Below, piece after piece: positions 1 through 4,136 of a stretch of DNA of 64,000 nt. Numbering within the stretch: position 1 is the stretch's first letter; every line of letters begins with the position of its first letter. The stretch comes from Thermodesulfobacteriota bacterium (GTDB lineage: Bacteria; Desulfobacterota; Desulfobacteria; Desulfobacterales; SURF-7). Where the stretch lies: the NCBI GenBank assembly GCA_049320885.1, contig JBMORA010000017.1, positions 1-64,000 on the forward strand. Reading direction: 5' to 3'. The position numbers and the translations under genes are program-made. The notes under the pieces were generated by a model, which saw nothing but the letters and a program-made list of their open reading frames with translations, was not told where the DNA came from and did not search any database.

Positions 1-124
1 ATCGGGCATTTACATAGGCAAGCGCCTTACGCGAAAGCGAGTACAACCGAGGAACCGGATGCGGGAAAACCGCACGTCCGGGTCTGTGCGGGGGGTGCCG
101 GGTAACTGGCATTCCTACCGCGAG
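1..124 (+). mobile_element. Group II intron, 3' end (end of domain IV, domain V, domain VI); the rest lies upstream of the window
   Basis: Domain V hairpin 52-84 (GAACCGGAT-GCGG-GAAAA-CCGC-AC bulge-GTCCGGGTC). Domain VI 87-122 with a GTAA tetraloop and unpaired A117 in CCTACCGC. The 3' end is placed at 124 from branch-A spacing and from the attC core match downstream. Confidence 0.9.
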
Positions 125-215
125 ATGATTGATAATCATTATGTAGTGGGTAGTTACTGCCATCCCGCAATCCAAACTACAAAAGCCAGGATGCCCAACC
201 TTTTAGGAGCAAATC

Positions 216-2177
216 ATGTACGCACAGATAGATCAGAGGGTATCGGAAGCATTTAATTCGATGCTCCGGACAGATTACATTGCGCTTGGCGATATAGACA
301 AGATGAATTTGCTTTCCCAGTATTATGTCGATTACTTTGGTTACTTGCCACAAGTGCTTAGCGAAACAGACCAGCTCGTAGTTGGCAGGAGAGGCACAGG
401 GAAAACAACGCTTTTATACAGGGCATTTGTCGAGTGCATGCGGTCATGGGGTGATCGGCCCGAACTTGCCAAGAGCCGAACGTTAGGGATCTATATTGAC
501 TTAAGCAAGTGCCAATCTCTCTATTCCACTTCTGACTTTACTCATTTTGAGCATATGTTTGTTAGTGAGATGTGCCAATCCATCAGCGATCAACTCAAAC
601 GATTCTGGCCCGAACTTGAGAAGCAGCCGGGCGTTCTAGACAAGCTCTTCAACAGTGCTAATCAGAAAAAACAGGGTGAGGTCAAGAAGGAACTCGACAA
701 ACTTGCCACCTTACTCAAGACAGGTCTGCCGCGCATTGTTTCGCATGGTACCATAAGCCGAGAAACCACTGGCCGAAATAAACGCAAAGAAACCGCAGGT
801 GTAGATGCAACAGTATCTGCAACCCCAAAGATAGATGTGAAAGGTAGCGAGGAATCCGAATCGGAGTACACTGAGAAGGTTAGCGGGACAGAGGCTGTAG
901 CCTATAGACTCTCAGTTTCTGACATTTTTGGACTGTTGCAGTCTTTACGTGAAAAAGCCGAGATCTCGGCAATCTTCGTTTTTATTGATGAATATTCATC
1001 GTTGTCCACTGAATTGCAGGGTCGGTTCTCTAGTCTCTTGCGCAAGATGTTGGGTGCACATGCAGGGCTTTTTCTTAAGCTTTGTGCGATTACAGACAAC
1101 TACACACTCGGGAGCTCCATCATCCTTCAGCGGGACCTATTCGAAATTTCCCTTGATCTTGATGCATATGTGGAACGTAGCAACAACCTTGGCCACGCGA
1201 TGAACGGTCTTCGTGAACACACCGAAAGGATTGTTCGCAAGAGACTCCAGGCTTACGAGTGCCAGGATCCAGAACAGCTCTTCGCAGATATGCCCGACAT
1301 ATGGATGGAGCTATCACGGGCATCCATGGGTGTGCCTCGTACACTTGGTATCGTGCTACAGCAGGCATGGAATCGCAGAAGAGCAGTTAGCACTAAAATT
1401 CGAAAGACCGACGTTGAATATGGAATACGATACGCATCTAAAGCATATCTCACACAAATGTTAGGAGCCAGCCGAGACAATGCGGCAATCCCGAGCCATA
1501 TCACTGAACTGTGGTTTGCACTTCAGGAAAGGGCAACAGAGGAAAGGCAGAAAGAAAACAAAGAGGCCAGCCATTTCCTTCTGACGGCTAAATATGAGCC
1601 GGTCATCAAATATCTTAACATGTTCTTCCTTGTTCATCTATTAACGAAGGGCAGGACAACAAAAAAGGATAGCTCTGCGCGTAGCCTTTATTGCTTTGAC
1701 TATGGGATTTGTCTTGAGAACAATCTCGGATTTACGCTGGACAAGAACGTTCTCCGGCAACAGCGTTTTGTGTACGATAGCGTTGTCCTGCCATACTTTG
1801 AACGCTATTATCAGCATTCAAATGAGCCAATTTACGAATGCACTAAATGTGGGCAAACATATAAGCAAAACGAGATACAGGTTGCCGGAAAGACACTTGA
1901 TTTCTGTCCAAAAGATCGCGCAGACCTTAGGCTGGTCCCATCGACCTTTTTTCAGTCAACATTTACTGAAGAGGAAATTAAAATCATTGGGGCTATCCGT
2001 TCAGCTGGAAGATCTGATAAACTTTTGGCCCGAAGAGTTGCAGACGATGTTGGATGCTTCGTGCAAAAAGTCGCAAAGTTTGGTGAAAAGCTTGAGCGAG
2101 ACTCTATGATATCCCGTGACAGAGATGATGATGCGGGCAAGCTTATTTATTTCTCTGAAGAAAAAAAGGACAATTGA
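216..2177 (+). CDS. P-loop NTPase (AAA+/ORC-CDC6/STAND-like) with C-terminal Zn-ribbon-like and winged-helix regions; integron cassette gene
   Basis: Walker A GRRGTGKT, Walker B FVFIDE, CTKC...CPKD motif, HTH-like C-terminus; SD AGGAG upstream; AT-richer than the backbone; followed by an attC. Confidence 0.8.
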   Translation: MYAQIDQRVSEAFNSMLRTDYIALGDIDKMNLLSQYYVDYFGYLPQVLSETDQLVVGRRGTGKTTLLYRAFVECMRSWGDRPELAKSRTLGIYIDLSKCQSLYSTSDFTHFEHMFVSEMCQSISDQLKRFWPELEKQPGVLDKLFNSANQKKQGEVKKELDKLATLLKTGLPRIVSHGTISRETTGRNKRKETAGVDATVSATPKIDVKGSEESESEYTEKVSGTEAVAYRLSVSDIFGLLQSLREKAEISAIFVFIDEYSSLSTELQGRFSSLLRKMLGAHAGLFLKLCAITDNYTLGSSIILQRDLFEISLDLDAYVERSNNLGHAMNGLREHTERIVRKRLQAYECQDPEQLFADMPDIWMELSRASMGVPRTLGIVLQQAWNRRRAVSTKIRKTDVEYGIRYASKAYLTQMLGASRDNAAIPSHITELWFALQERATEERQKENKEASHFLLTAKYEPVIKYLNMFFLVHLLTKGRTTKKDSSARSLYCFDYGICLENNLGFTLDKNVLRQQRFVYDSVVLPYFERYYQHSNEPIYECTKCGQTYKQNEIQVAGKTLDFCPKDRADLRLVPSTFFQSTFTEEEIKIIGAIRSAGRSDKLLARRVADDVGCFVQKVAKFGEKLERDSMISRDRDDDAGKLIYFSEEKKDN

Positions 2178-2202
2178 ACGATTCTTCAAAGAGCCGTTAT
2201 AA

Positions 2203-2268
2203 TCATAACGAAGGTTTGCACGGGATCACGGCAAAAAGCGCCGCGCCCCGTGAAACCTGACGTTGGCA
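2203..2268 (+). other. Integron attC recombination site (canonical)
   Basis: R'' TCATAAC 2203-2209, 5-bp spacer, L'' TTTGCACG with extrahelical G, L' CGTGAAA, 6-bp spacer, R' GTTGGCA 2262-2268. AGGTTT(G)CACGGG pairs with CCCGTGAAACCT; there is a second extrahelical T and the mismatches give G-T wobbles on the bottom strand. Confidence 0.92.
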
Positions 2269-2338
2269 GCCACATTGATGAGTGCGGTGGCATAGTTGTT
2301 CTTGCCGCCACAACTCAATATTGCAAGGTGATCACATC

Positions 2339-2602
2339 ATGAAATATGGCGTTACCGAAACAGCCCGAATATTGGGAATCGATATCCAGCAGCTTAAGAC
2401 ATGGGCATATCAATTCCGCGACAATCTTTCAGCTTCAGCAAATCCTGAAAAGGGAACGCCACGCATTTTTACGACGGAGGATGTGCAAGTACTACTCTAT
2501 GTGAGCCACTTCTGGGAAGACGAATCGGATGCCGAAGCTATTGTTGTTGGGCTTAATTCAGGGTGCCACCTTGAAGACCGATTCGGGGACGGACCAAGAT
2601 AA
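2339..2602 (+). CDS. MerR-type HTH protein, possibly truncated; first ORF of the next cassette
   Basis: YGVTETARILGIDIQQLKTWA...PRIFTTEDV resembles a MerR HTH; begins shortly after the attC R'. Confidence 0.6.
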   Translation: MKYGVTETARILGIDIQQLKTWAYQFRDNLSASANPEKGTPRIFTTEDVQVLLYVSHFWEDESDAEAIVVGLNSGCHLEDRFGDGPR

Positions 2603-2827
2603 CTGGCTATTAAAATAAAGAATAGGCTTTTTTACACCTATCAAAATGGGGCTATATCAAGCTTTTTGAGGTAAAAAATGGGGTGAATGGCCTGACCGAT
2701 TTATGCCTTACACCAGGATATGGAGAAACCGGCGGCTACCTGGTGGGATAGCAACCAATCCCAGCGGATCGATTGGATGAAGCCGCTTGTTCGCGTGTTC
2801 ACGCCAACCCTTTTAATTGGGAGCATC

Positions 2828-3352
2828 ATGTTAAAAGATGAAATAATCCGATATTTGAATATAATAAACGATAAATTACAGCAAAAAAATGTCAAGGGTG
2901 AAATTTGTTTGTATGGCGGTGCTGTAATGTGTCTTGTATTCGATGCAAGACCGAGTACAAAGGATGTTGACGCGATCTTTCATCCTGCCGAAACAATACG
3001 ACGAGTTGCCAAAGAGATTTCAAATGAATATGAATTGGCGGATGATTGGTTGAATGATGGCGTAAAAGGTTTTCTTGTGGATCATCCCAAGAAGGTGTTT
3101 TTGAAATTATCCAATTTGGTAGTTATGGTGGCCGATTCTGAATATATGCTTGCCATGAAATCCCTCTCCGCAAGGATAGATGGAACGGATAGCGGCGATA
3201 TTGAATTTTTAATCAAAGAGTTGAATATTCAATCGGTAGAGGATGTTTTTAAAATAATAGATAAATACTATCCTCGTAGAATAATCAAGCCGGCGACTCA
3301 ATTCTTTTTAGAGGAGCTTTTTGATGAAATGCAGAACGATTCAAGAGACTAA
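2828..3352 (+). CDS. Nucleotidyltransferase-fold protein (DUF6036/AbiEii-like), putative TA toxin
   Basis: LYGGAVM...RPSTKDVD NTase motif, WLNDGVKGF, LAMK...D..DI; start ATG 2828 chosen after a GGGAG SD. Confidence 0.75.
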   Translation: MLKDEIIRYLNIINDKLQQKNVKGEICLYGGAVMCLVFDARPSTKDVDAIFHPAETIRRVAKEISNEYELADDWLNDGVKGFLVDHPKKVFLKLSNLVVMVADSEYMLAMKSLSARIDGTDSGDIEFLIKELNIQSVEDVFKIIDKYYPRRIIKPATQFFLEELFDEMQNDSRD

Positions 3353-3683
3353 AAACGCCATGGTGGAGAACGGCGATAACTGGCGGATTCCGTTTATGGA
3401 GTTTGTGGACGATTTTAGAAGGACACATGATTGTTCCTTGATCGAAAAGCCTTTTGAATTGGGCGATGAAAAATTTGATTCTTTATTGGCTTCGACAGCG
3501 GAATATTTGTGTGATGAAATGGGGCTTGAGGTTCCTGACTGGATCTGGAATATTCCTCCTTGCAAAGAACCATGGTTTGTCTCGGGCTATGAAAATTTAA
3601 AGGCAATATCCATCGCCGAAAGTCCCGCATTTTTCCGAAGAAGAAAGATTTTTGTTTTGGAAAATTTTCTTTCGAGAGCATAG
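3324..3683 (+). CDS. Putative partner/antitoxin of the upstream nucleotidyltransferase
   Basis: Overlaps the upstream gene; EFVDDF...DSLLASTAEYL...PWF...SPAFFRRRKIFV pattern seen in partners of such NTases; GAGGAG SD. Confidence 0.6.
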   Translation: MKCRTIQETKNAMVENGDNWRIPFMEFVDDFRRTHDCSLIEKPFELGDEKFDSLLASTAEYLCDEMGLEVPDWIWNIPPCKEPWFVSGYENLKAISIAESPAFFRRRKIFVLENFLSRA

Positions 3684-3701
3684 CTATTAATGGAGGGATC
3701 A

Positions 3702-4136
3702 ATGATGTGGGAAGATCCGATTGTATAAGAGACCAGGGATTTGAGAAAAAAATATGCCTCTATATTTAAAAATGACCCCGATGCAATCTTTGAAGATATG
3801 GATGAAACAACCAAAGTCCAAGACAGTTCAGGCGTTGATAAAGGGTTGGTCGCAATGTTTCTCAAGATGTCGCCAGAGGAGCGCCTGATGTCAAATGATA
3901 ATGCCGTACGCACTATTCTGGAATTGAGAAATGCCTACCAACAACAAAAAAACAAGAACCACCGATCTGAGGAAGATCTGTTACAGTATACAGTAGAAAT
4001 TGATTTCAGGGGCTATACCCTTCGCGTTCTCGATATGAAAAAGTTGATAGAGCTCAAGAAGACCTCCAGAGACCCTAAAGACAAACAACGGCTCCCTGTT
4101 CTTGAAGAAACATTGCGGCAGTTGGAGAAACAATAG
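3702..4136 (+). pseudogene. Chimeric remnant of several TA genes (antitoxin-like fragments plus an NTase toxin C-terminus)
   Basis: MMWEDPIV*ETRDLRKKYA (in-frame TAA 3726-3728), then GVDKGLVAMFLKMSPEERL, then LIELKKTSRDPKDKQRLPVLEETL (NTase-type C-terminus), all in one frame. Confidence 0.6.

What the first reader, a model, noticed from the sequence alone, without database searches (positions are those of the whole stretch)
1..2268. Group II intron apparently inserted in an attC core on the top strand (GTT^ATGATT), unlike the known IIC-attC introns
Seen: intron domains V/VI end at about 124, followed immediately by ATGATT (125-130). The attC closing this cassette has an extended R'' AATCATAAC (2201-2209), whose reverse complement is GTT-ATGATT; complementarity continues (TTAT at 2197-2200 vs ATAA at 132-135, one bulge). 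Established: a cassette's 5' end (R') complements its own R'', so this cassette should start GTTATGATT. Classical IIC-attC introns insert on the bottom strand, antisense to the cassettes, at the R'' end, and have a shortened domain V with a CGC triad. Inference: this intron has a full-length non-IIC domain V, lies sense to the cassettes, and has split the upstream R' right after GTT. That would be a separate attC-homing retroelement lineage, one that blocks integrase recombination at that site while being removable from the array transcript by splicing. I cannot check whether such top-strand insertions have already been reported.
Basis: partly seen in the sequence, partly recalled or inferred. 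Interest (0 to 1): 0.8.

Follow-up and report, generated by a model that had tools for sequence, protein, structure and literature searches.

The report
Sense-strand intron in integron recombination site
The contig starts with the tail of a mobile self-splicing intron that sits in the conserved core of an integron recombination site, pointing the same way as the genes; its relatives find the same short motif by RNA-DNA pairing and probably leave the site usable, a habit glimpsed in print only as fragments.

Summary
Largely real, with two corrections. Window 1-125 is the 3' end of a class-E-like group II intron, sense to a genuine cassette (ATPase gene 216-2177, attC 2203-2268). Its own 5' end lies off the contig and was not recovered. 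In relatives, 19 of 21 visible 5' exons end GTTR. EBS1 (UAACGU), EBS3 (complementary in 24 of 26 copies) and gamma=U all fit that register. The lineage has unusual ends (UCGCG...GAGA), an AAC triad and J2/3 UA. Targeting follows the motif CGTTR^(T/G): enriched at attC (8 of 20 upstream flanks; 14 of 55 cassette matches against 1.7 expected) but not exclusive. 'Blocks recombination' is not supported: the hairpin and the G|TT crossover stay intact, so the intron probably travels with the downstream cassette. This copy may be a 5'-truncated relic, as 14 of 38 relatives are. Co-oriented class E fragments in an attC cluster were published in 2021 (PMC7923331) without a target site, and this scan noted similar introns in at least 12 other genomes. 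New variant of a known kind.

The parts
1..17 (+). Last codons and stop (TAG 15-17) of the intron-encoded RT/maturase ORF
   Evidence: The identical copy on G000:C6 extends the frame to ...KVFTKAIESLRIAKPKMVMVNRKHRAFT*, 81% identical over 27 aa to the C-terminus of a full-length relative's RT
18..50 (+). 3' part of intron domain IV
   Evidence: Matches the same stretch of full-length relatives; position between the ORF stop and DV (sequence)
51..85 (+). Domain V, full-length: AAC triad (53-55) with A54 opposite G82, AC bulge 74-75, 5-nt GAAAA loop 65-69
   Evidence: triad and partner tallies
88..121 (+). Domain VI with bulged A117
   Evidence: the bulge is read from the stem pairing
122..125 (+). 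Intron 3' terminus GAGA; predicted 3' splice site after A125
   Evidence: EBS3 covariation 24 of 26, EBS1 register and gamma=U in relatives; inferred, not spliced
126..128 (+). Start of the 3' exon: remainder of the cassette's own R' core (GTTA|TGA)
   Evidence: Reverse complement of R'' TCATAAC at 2203-2209
216..2177 (+). Cassette gene, 653-aa P-loop ATPase (ORC-CDC6-like)
   Evidence: PF24389 E 4.3e-12, 46 bits against cut-off 27; NF047389 below cut-off; only a weak PADLOC hit
2203..2268 (+). attC closing the cassette: R'' 2203-2209, L'' about 2214-2222, L' about 2249-2256, R' GTTGGCA 2262-2268
   Evidence: homologous sites

Best explanation
The window opens with the last 125 nt of a member of a class-E-like, endonuclease-less group II intron lineage (about 2.0-2.2 kb with an RT; 0.7-0.8 kb without). 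The RNP reverse-splices into the cassette-sense strand at the motif (A/G)CGTTR^(T/G). EBS1 UAACGU pairs with the six bases ending at R, and EBS3 pairs with the next base. No conserved IBS2 and no hairpin appear to be required. Because this motif is the attC R' core plus the conserved C before it, attC sites are frequent targets, though not the only ones. Here the target was the cassette's GTTA^TGATT. The insertion lies three bases downstream of the G|TT crossover, so the upstream hairpin stays whole and the intron becomes the 5' leader of the downstream cassette, probably moving with it. The intron's first U recreates the target, which explains head-to-tail tandems. Shown: the 3' end, the cassette and attC, flanks and pairings in relatives. 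Inferred: the 5' exon of this copy, the splice register, retained recombination, lagging-strand-template insertion and splicing activity.
For: 61 related 3' ends stop in GAG, and 60 are followed by A, against GAY in 109 of 118 ends from a looser metagenome scan. 19 of 21 non-tandem 5' flanks end GTTR before TCGCG. EBS1 pairs at all six positions, G-U included, in 16 of 20, with one mismatch in the other 4. The EBS1 register was read from five control introns with 6/6 pairing. EBS3 is complementary to the second base after GAG in 24 of 26 (13 of 14 outside the most-sampled genome); controls give 18 of 22 at the first base after GAY. Gamma is U in 25 of 25. In L079 the 5' flank GTTG and the downstream R'' TGCCAAC fit GTTR^. 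A Thiodictyon relative changes both EBS1 and its 5' exon and keeps the pairing (read by eye). attC enrichment: 8 of 20 upstream flanks exceed the null's 95th percentile; 14 of 55 downstream hairpins carry an R'' that matches the 3' exon, against 1.7 +/- 1.2 permuted, maximum 6 in 2000. The lineage's RTs form one branch at 100/100.
Against: The 5' exon and 5' end of this copy were never seen, and no group II RT is in the assembly. 14 of 38 relatives with enough upstream sequence lack the 5' end, as do the second copy in this genome (197 nt) and the 99% identical G001 copy (about 140 nt). 12 of 20 upstream flanks and 41 of 55 downstream flanks did not pass my home-made attC tests, which also miss sites visible by eye. 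4 of 41 control introns also match at the same register. 12 of the 26 EBS3 rows come from one genome. The register puts the bulged A at -9 rather than the usual -8. The genome scan pattern fixed the DV partner base, so that set is selected. No splicing, mobility or recombination data exist.
Confidence: 0.8

Rival explanations
1. One reading: the intron is ATCGCG...CGAG and cuts GTT^A, with an invariant A as first base of the 3' exon.
For: Keeps the usual -8 branch geometry, and G124 aligns with the terminal Y of 109 of 118 control ends. Sequence alone cannot separate the registers, because A lies at both junctions.
Against: It needs EBS3=U, but that position is A (18) or C (8) and tracks the next base. 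Gamma=U predicts a terminal A. GTTG flanks in L079 and L080 fit a U-G wobble in EBS1.
Confidence: 0.07
2. The copy in the window is a 5'-truncated relic of abortive retrohoming: true 3' junction, but no 5' half, no splicing, and perhaps no attC directly upstream.
For: 14 of 38 relatives lack the 5' end. The identical C6 copy is truncated at 197 nt behind a 94-bp duplication of its 3' exon. No intron 5' start lies at any contig end.
Against: In run X1, which may be the source of the assembly, short contigs over the intron end have depths of 68-88 against 23.6 for the cassette, with further loose ends after 126-127. Several copies therefore exist and a repeat explains the break; repeats are often left out of such assemblies. 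Compatible with the best explanation as regards the lineage.
Confidence: 0.35
3. Homing depends on the attC hairpin or on protein contacts with the L' box, as for IIC-attC introns, and non-attC sites are rare ectopic events.
For: Enrichment over motif-only sites: 8 of 20 against 5%, up to 13 of 21 by eye. Mild base preferences at -13 to -8 of the 5' exon.
Against: Eight full-length or ORF-less copies have flanks with no attC signal (L054, L055, L062, L064, L083, L086, L089, L093). The C6 site scores 4.5, within the null. Purifying selection against insertions in genes could produce the enrichment.
Confidence: 0.2
4. The insertion inactivates the attC and locks the cassette in place.
For: The last three R' bases are replaced, and about 2.1 kb is added to the cassette; excision falls for cassettes of 1,500 bp or more with poorly folding sites (PMC5371416, passages).
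Against: Only AAC and GTT are conserved and the crossover is at G|TT (PMC2727003). In arrays, R' beyond G always comes from the neighbouring cassette (established knowledge). The new R' reads GTTATCG.
Confidence: 0.1

Closest known systems
H.ha.F1 and H.ha.F2 of Halorhodospira halochloris (Sonbol and Siam 2021, PMC7923331; parts 1-4 of 7 of the text and supplement 1 read, DNA runs cut at about 400 letters)
   Same: Class E by the authors' tree, endonuclease-less, inside an attC cluster with attC-like structures upstream, and placed with the cassette top strand on the leading strand. The printed start of H.ha.F1 matches this lineage's domain I almost letter for letter, and both IEP C-termini share the RRGGKRxSF motif (one search compared by eye). 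Probably the same or a sister lineage.
   Different: Both were 5'-truncated fragments. The text read gives no target motif, EBS1/EBS3 pairing, termini, triad or J2/3 changes, and speculates on a role for hairpins. Their 3' ends were cut from the supplement text, so I could not check them.
Group IIC-attC introns (S.ma.I2 and relatives; PMC3001079 passages, PMC7923331, PMC4424553 passages)
   Same: Endonuclease-less mobile introns that colonise attC sites.
   Different: Class C RNA with a CGC triad, bottom strand, antisense, at R'' (TTGT/T), hairpin-dependent. Here: full DV, AAC triad, top strand, sense, inside R', 6-bp EBS1, motif-dependent.
UHB.I2 (CL1/IIB1; PMC7923331)
   Same: Full-length non-IIC intron co-oriented with cassettes right after an attC; also starts with U (UUGCG).
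   Different: CL1 IEP, AGC triad, ends in GU, EBS3 bulge reported absent; a separate lineage.
Group IIE introns (Nagy et al. 2013, PMC3753933; passages and section 15 read)
   Same: 5-nt DV loop, compact RNA (about 700 nt without the ORF), EBS1-driven splice-site choice with EBS2 dispensable for splicing.
   Different: Tested IIE introns are described with canonical splice sites and no integron link (0 hits for 'integron'). Here the termini, triad and J2/3 are changed.
Group IIC intron on the top strand in an Enterobacter cloacae integron (seen only as cited in PMC7923331)
   Same: Sense orientation, top strand.
   Different: Class C; a single reported case; paper not read.

Membership tests
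Group IIC-attC introns | Class C domain V with CGC triad | tested here: not met
   35-nt DV with AAC triad
Group IIC-attC introns | Bottom-strand insertion, antisense to cassettes, at R'' (TTGT/T) | tested here: not met
   Sense to the cassette gene, inside R'
Group IIC-attC introns | IEP in the class C clade | tested here: inconclusive
   No class C sequence was in my trees; a relative's RT matches solved class C, ML and CL RTs about equally (E 1e-40 to 1e-37)
Group IIE / bacterial class E | 5-nt loop in domain V | tested here: met
   GAAAA at 65-69; feature taken from PMC3753933
Group IIE / bacterial class E | IEP in the class E clade | tested here: inconclusive
   With the other pRmeGR4b RT (taken from recall as class D) as outgroup, the lineage falls in a sister group of the clade holding the disrupted pRmeGR4b intron (presumed S.me.I4, class E per PMC5894124); 37-41% identity to it against 50-57% for that clade. 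No class F reference. Close to H.ha.F1/F2 by eye
Group IIE / bacterial class E | IEP without endonuclease domain | tested here: met
   In relatives the ORF stops about 37 aa after the end of the TIGR04416 match, just before DV; this copy's RT is not in the assembly
Group IIE / bacterial class E | Canonical GUGYG...AY termini and AGC triad (general group II consensus) | tested here: not met
   UCGCG...GAGA; triad AAC in 52 of 53 parsed ends
Group IIE / bacterial class E | alpha' at a stem-loop terminus and extra bulge in DId3 | not tested
   Domain I was aligned but not folded
Group IIE / bacterial class E | EBS2-IBS2 duplex | tested here: inconclusive
   No conserved 5' exon sequence at -7 to -12 in 20 flanks; EBS2 itself not located
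Group IIE / bacterial class E | Hydrolytic self-splicing in vitro | not testable with these tools
   Needs bench work
Integron cassette / attC | AAC...GTT R boxes, complementary L boxes with an extrahelical base, bottom-strand hairpin | tested here: met
Integron cassette / attC | Cassette 5' end complementary to its own R'' | tested here: met
   TGA at 126-128 against TCATAAC; the GTTA part is inferred
Complete integron | Linked intI and attI | tested here: inconclusive
   Two integron integrases above cut-off on other contigs, C8 and C56, both near contig ends; linkage to C17 not shown; no second attC of this family on C17

The most novel reading that the evidence does not exclude
An active group II ribozyme lineage has rewired its catalytic core and both termini together (AAC triad with an A-G pair, J2/3 U in place of G, 5' U and 3' A) and uses them to hitchhike on integron cassettes. 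Its 5' bases rebuild the R' box and its own target, so it spreads by IntI recombination as well as by retrohoming and builds tandem arrays. It would supply a natural compensatory test of the catalytic triplex shared with the spliceosome.
Probability: 0.4. Interest if true: 0.7.

Novelty: new variant of a known kind. Interest (0 to 1): 0.5.

Why it matters
Reviews tie attC targeting to class C introns on the bottom strand. A second route, by ordinary EBS1/EBS3 pairing to the only conserved bases of attC, would make integron arrays a general reservoir and vehicle for group II introns, and predicts that splicing or intron promoters affect cassette expression. The covarying AAC triad, J2/3 UA and U...A termini in dozens of natural copies give a ready test of catalytic-triplex models. 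A 0.7-kb ORF-less member is small enough for structural work.

Tried and rejected
Finding the window's own upstream sequence: no contig end joins it except through the shared 126 nt with C6; no intron 5' start or group II RT is in the assembly, only a CRISPR-associated RT on C15; read laying showed a 123-nt contig reaching 55 nt upstream and nothing longer among the pieces listed. No RNA holder listed. An intron-free copy of the cassette: not found in 400 genomes of the class, where only the attC matched; partial gene matches in runs X2, X3 and X5 do not cover 161-400. Viral contigs: 0 matches. Plasmids: 27 records matched, one of them a lineage member; best RT match 44%. A 5'-end pattern in 401 genomes of the phylum gave 3 matches in 2 genomes, none informative for the target. 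The same cassette with the intron in two contexts, as evidence of IntI mobility: one shared 3' flank (L063, L216), both without a 5' flank. A fixed-geometry attC detector was too strict, and plain presence of a downstream hairpin did not separate lineage from controls (23 of 54 against 11 of 41; 32 of 55 against 18 of 41); only the R''-match test did. Register GTTAT^GATT rejected: the base after GAGA is G in 28 of 61 and 1 of 55 match when shifted. A 3' exon duplication like that on C6 was not seen in 14 other truncated copies. No covariance model was built.

Full report
Observation. The window is G000:C17:1-64000 and begins at the contig's first base. Rfam finds domains V/VI at 50-124 (41.3 bits, gathering 40). 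DV (51-85) is full-length, with a 5-nt loop and an AAC triad whose middle A lies opposite G; DVI (88-121) has a bulged A117. A 653-aa ORC-CDC6-like ATPase gene follows (216-2177), then an attC at 2203-2268. The attC folds on the bottom strand with z -3.8 to -4.9, scores above all 250 control sites and has homologues in 6 of 400 other genomes of the class. Two integron integrases lie on other contigs.

Own genome. The first 126 nt are identical to C6:28655-28780. That copy is 5'-truncated at 197 nt and encodes the last 27 residues of an RT like those of relatives. It sits beside a CRISPR array behind a 94-bp duplication of its 3' exon. Its target, CATCGTTA^TTGG, occurs without the intron on C10 and C19 and is not an attC (score 4.5). 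The assembly holds no group II RT and no intact intron 5' start. In run X1, which may be the source of the assembly, short contigs over the intron end are three to four times deeper than the cassette, with other flanks branching off after 126-127. A repeat explains the contig break, but the 5' half of this copy stays unseen.

Relatives. A pattern scan of genome contigs gave 58 loci and 58 distinct ends after one duplicate locus was dropped; 56 end in GAG, and this pattern fixed the DV partner base. Of the 61 GAG ends, 60 continue with A, then T (30), G (28) or C (3). 24 have a 5' end, 14 lack it despite enough sequence, and 23 lie on contigs too short to tell. Leaving out two tandem junctions and one two-base flank, 19 of 21 5' flanks, from 10 genomes with 11 flanks from one of them, read GTTR before TCGCG. 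Their RTs form one branch (11 of 33 rows, 100/100), from Desulfobacterota-type genomes plus bins labelled Bacteroidota and Bacillota. A decayed relative lies on a Thiodictyon plasmid.

Splice register. A at both junctions makes GTT^A and GTTA^ identical in sequence, so I tested the pairings. (i) In five control introns, positions 7-12 of the 17-nt stretch between GCCGA and GAAGGC pair 6/6 with the 5' exon. In the lineage these positions read UAACG(U/G/C) and pair with the six bases ending at R: all six in 16 of 20 with G-U allowed, one mismatch in 4. (ii) The base after GTC downstream is EBS3 in controls (complementary to the first exon base in 18 of 22). In the lineage it is A or C, never U, and complements the second base after GAG in 24 of 26 (A-T 17, C-G 7; 13 of 14 outside the most-sampled genome; the Fisher p of 9e-5 overstates because of kinship). 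(iii) Gamma is U in 25 of 25, predicting a terminal A; controls pair G with C (18) and A with U (3), with 1 mismatch. (iv) L079 has GTTG upstream and R'' TGCCAAC downstream, although in L083 R'' differs from the 5' exon at that position. Against this register, the bulged A falls at -9 instead of -8. I infer an intron 5'-UCGCG...CGAGA-3' ending at window 125, with target GTTA^TGATT. Head-to-tail tandems (L044, L184, and a variant in L088) follow because the intron's first U recreates the target.

Catalytic core. The triad is AAC opposite G in 52 of 53 parsed lineage ends (8 unparsed), against AGC opposite A in 95 of 105 parsed metagenome controls. The J2/3 middle base is U in 25 of 25, against G in 16 of 17 controls. 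From recalled structures of the Oceanobacillus intron, these positions form one base triple, so the changes look compensatory; this is inference. Six control ends also have AAC.

How specific for attC? With a home-made arm-pairing score, 8 of 20 scorable upstream flanks exceed the 95th percentile of 250 genomic CGTTR[TG] sites (two short flanks and two tandems left out). By eye, five more are attC-like, two of them with the left end displaced by another intron, and eight show no signal. Downstream, 14 of 55 flanks, the window included, hold a hairpin whose R'' complements the first three exon bases, against 1.7 +/- 1.2 when these triplets are permuted (maximum 6 in 2000). Controls give 4 of 41, and several controls also target CGTT motifs in this or other registers. 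Positions -5 to -1 of the 5' exon are nearly invariant and -7 to -14 are not. The lineage therefore homes to a short motif that is the attC R' core; attC sites are enriched but not exclusive targets.

Consequences. attC conserves only AAC and GTT, and recombination occurs between C and A of the bottom-strand R' (PMC2727003, passages), which is G|TT on the top strand. The intron lies three bases further on, leaves the hairpin whole and restores GTTAT, so blocking is unlikely; it becomes the leader of the downstream cassette. Extra length may lower excision (PMC5371416, passages). Endonuclease-less RmInt1 prefers the lagging-strand template (PMC5894124, passages), and 25 of 30 sedentary integrons put the attC bottom strand on the leading-strand template, leaving the top strand on the lagging one. 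C17 has positive GC skew in 9 of 10 bins, weakly consistent with this. None of this was tested directly.

Comparison with what is known. It is not a IIC-attC intron: triad, strand and site all fail. It works like a class E intron. Membership is likely but not shown, because my tree had one presumed class E reference, no class F reference, and placed the lineage in a sister group. Sonbol and Siam 2021 (PMC7923331; parts 1-4 of 7 and supplement 1) reported class E fragments in an attC cluster with attC-like structures upstream, a co-oriented CL1 intron after an attC, and a cited top-strand class C case. H.ha.F1 matches this lineage by eye. They defined no target in the text I read; their supplementary figures and the cut parts of the sequences were not visible and may bear on the termini and triad. 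Seven searches listed no other paper on top-strand attC homing or on an AAC triad, but the library lacks most subscription papers, and Simon 2008, Toro 2002 and the Enterobacter report were seen only as references. PMC4424553, PMC4028801, PMC3001079 and PMC3753933 were read as passages (section 15 of the last). Earlier notes of this scan hold 13 similar findings in at least 12 genomes (8 shown); a search for the termini and triad words gave none.

Verdict. A real feature and a real lineage. New variant of a known kind; interest 0.5.

Noticed in passing
G000:C6:28471-28872 (L001 4472-4873): 5'-truncated identical intron copy (197 nt) in a CRISPR-leader-like repeat, preceded by a 94-bp duplication of its own 3' exon and short repeated CCCGAATCG units; looks like abortive retrohoming. 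Intron-free paralogous sites on C10 and C19.
   Followed up: partly
G000:C6:28120-28187 and G000:C48:74928-74999: Two other group II intron 3' ends without an RT; the C6 one lies between degenerate CRISPR repeats and the leader.
   Followed up: no
G000:C35:32731-32798: Decayed 5' remnant (about 50-70 nt) of the same lineage after GATTA, at a site that does not look like attC.
   Followed up: no
L044, L079 (5' flanks): The attC targeted at R' by this lineage also carries a different group II intron 3' end abutting its left arm, so two intron types share one site.
   Followed up: no
L104, L143, L131, L109, L101, L144, L153: Other class-E-like introns with GAY ends also have EBS1 against CGTT-type motifs, in registers GTTG^, GTTA^, GTTGG^ and GTTGGG^; some appear to start with GAAAGCG. 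R'-core targeting may have arisen several times.
   Followed up: partly
L109, L120, L148, L048, L075, L155: Introns ending GAT or GAA that also have an AAC triad; L109 shows J2/3 CA.
   Followed up: no
L017 4692-5406 (-), L054, L068, L078: ORF-less members of 459-762 nt; candidates for trans-mobilised mini-introns and for structural work.
   Followed up: partly
window 125-139: ATGATT-GAT-AATCAT is itself a perfect 6-bp inverted repeat across the intron-exon junction.
   Followed up: no
window 2282-4136: After the last attC: a MerR-like HTH ORF, a DUF6036 nucleotidyltransferase-like ORF (below cut-off) with an adjacent small ORF, possibly a toxin-antitoxin-like module; no attC of the same family.
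   Followed up: no
G000:C15:21068-21859: RT gene directly upstream of cas1/cas2-like genes and a CRISPR array (CRISPR-associated RT; names from recall of the layout).
   Followed up: no
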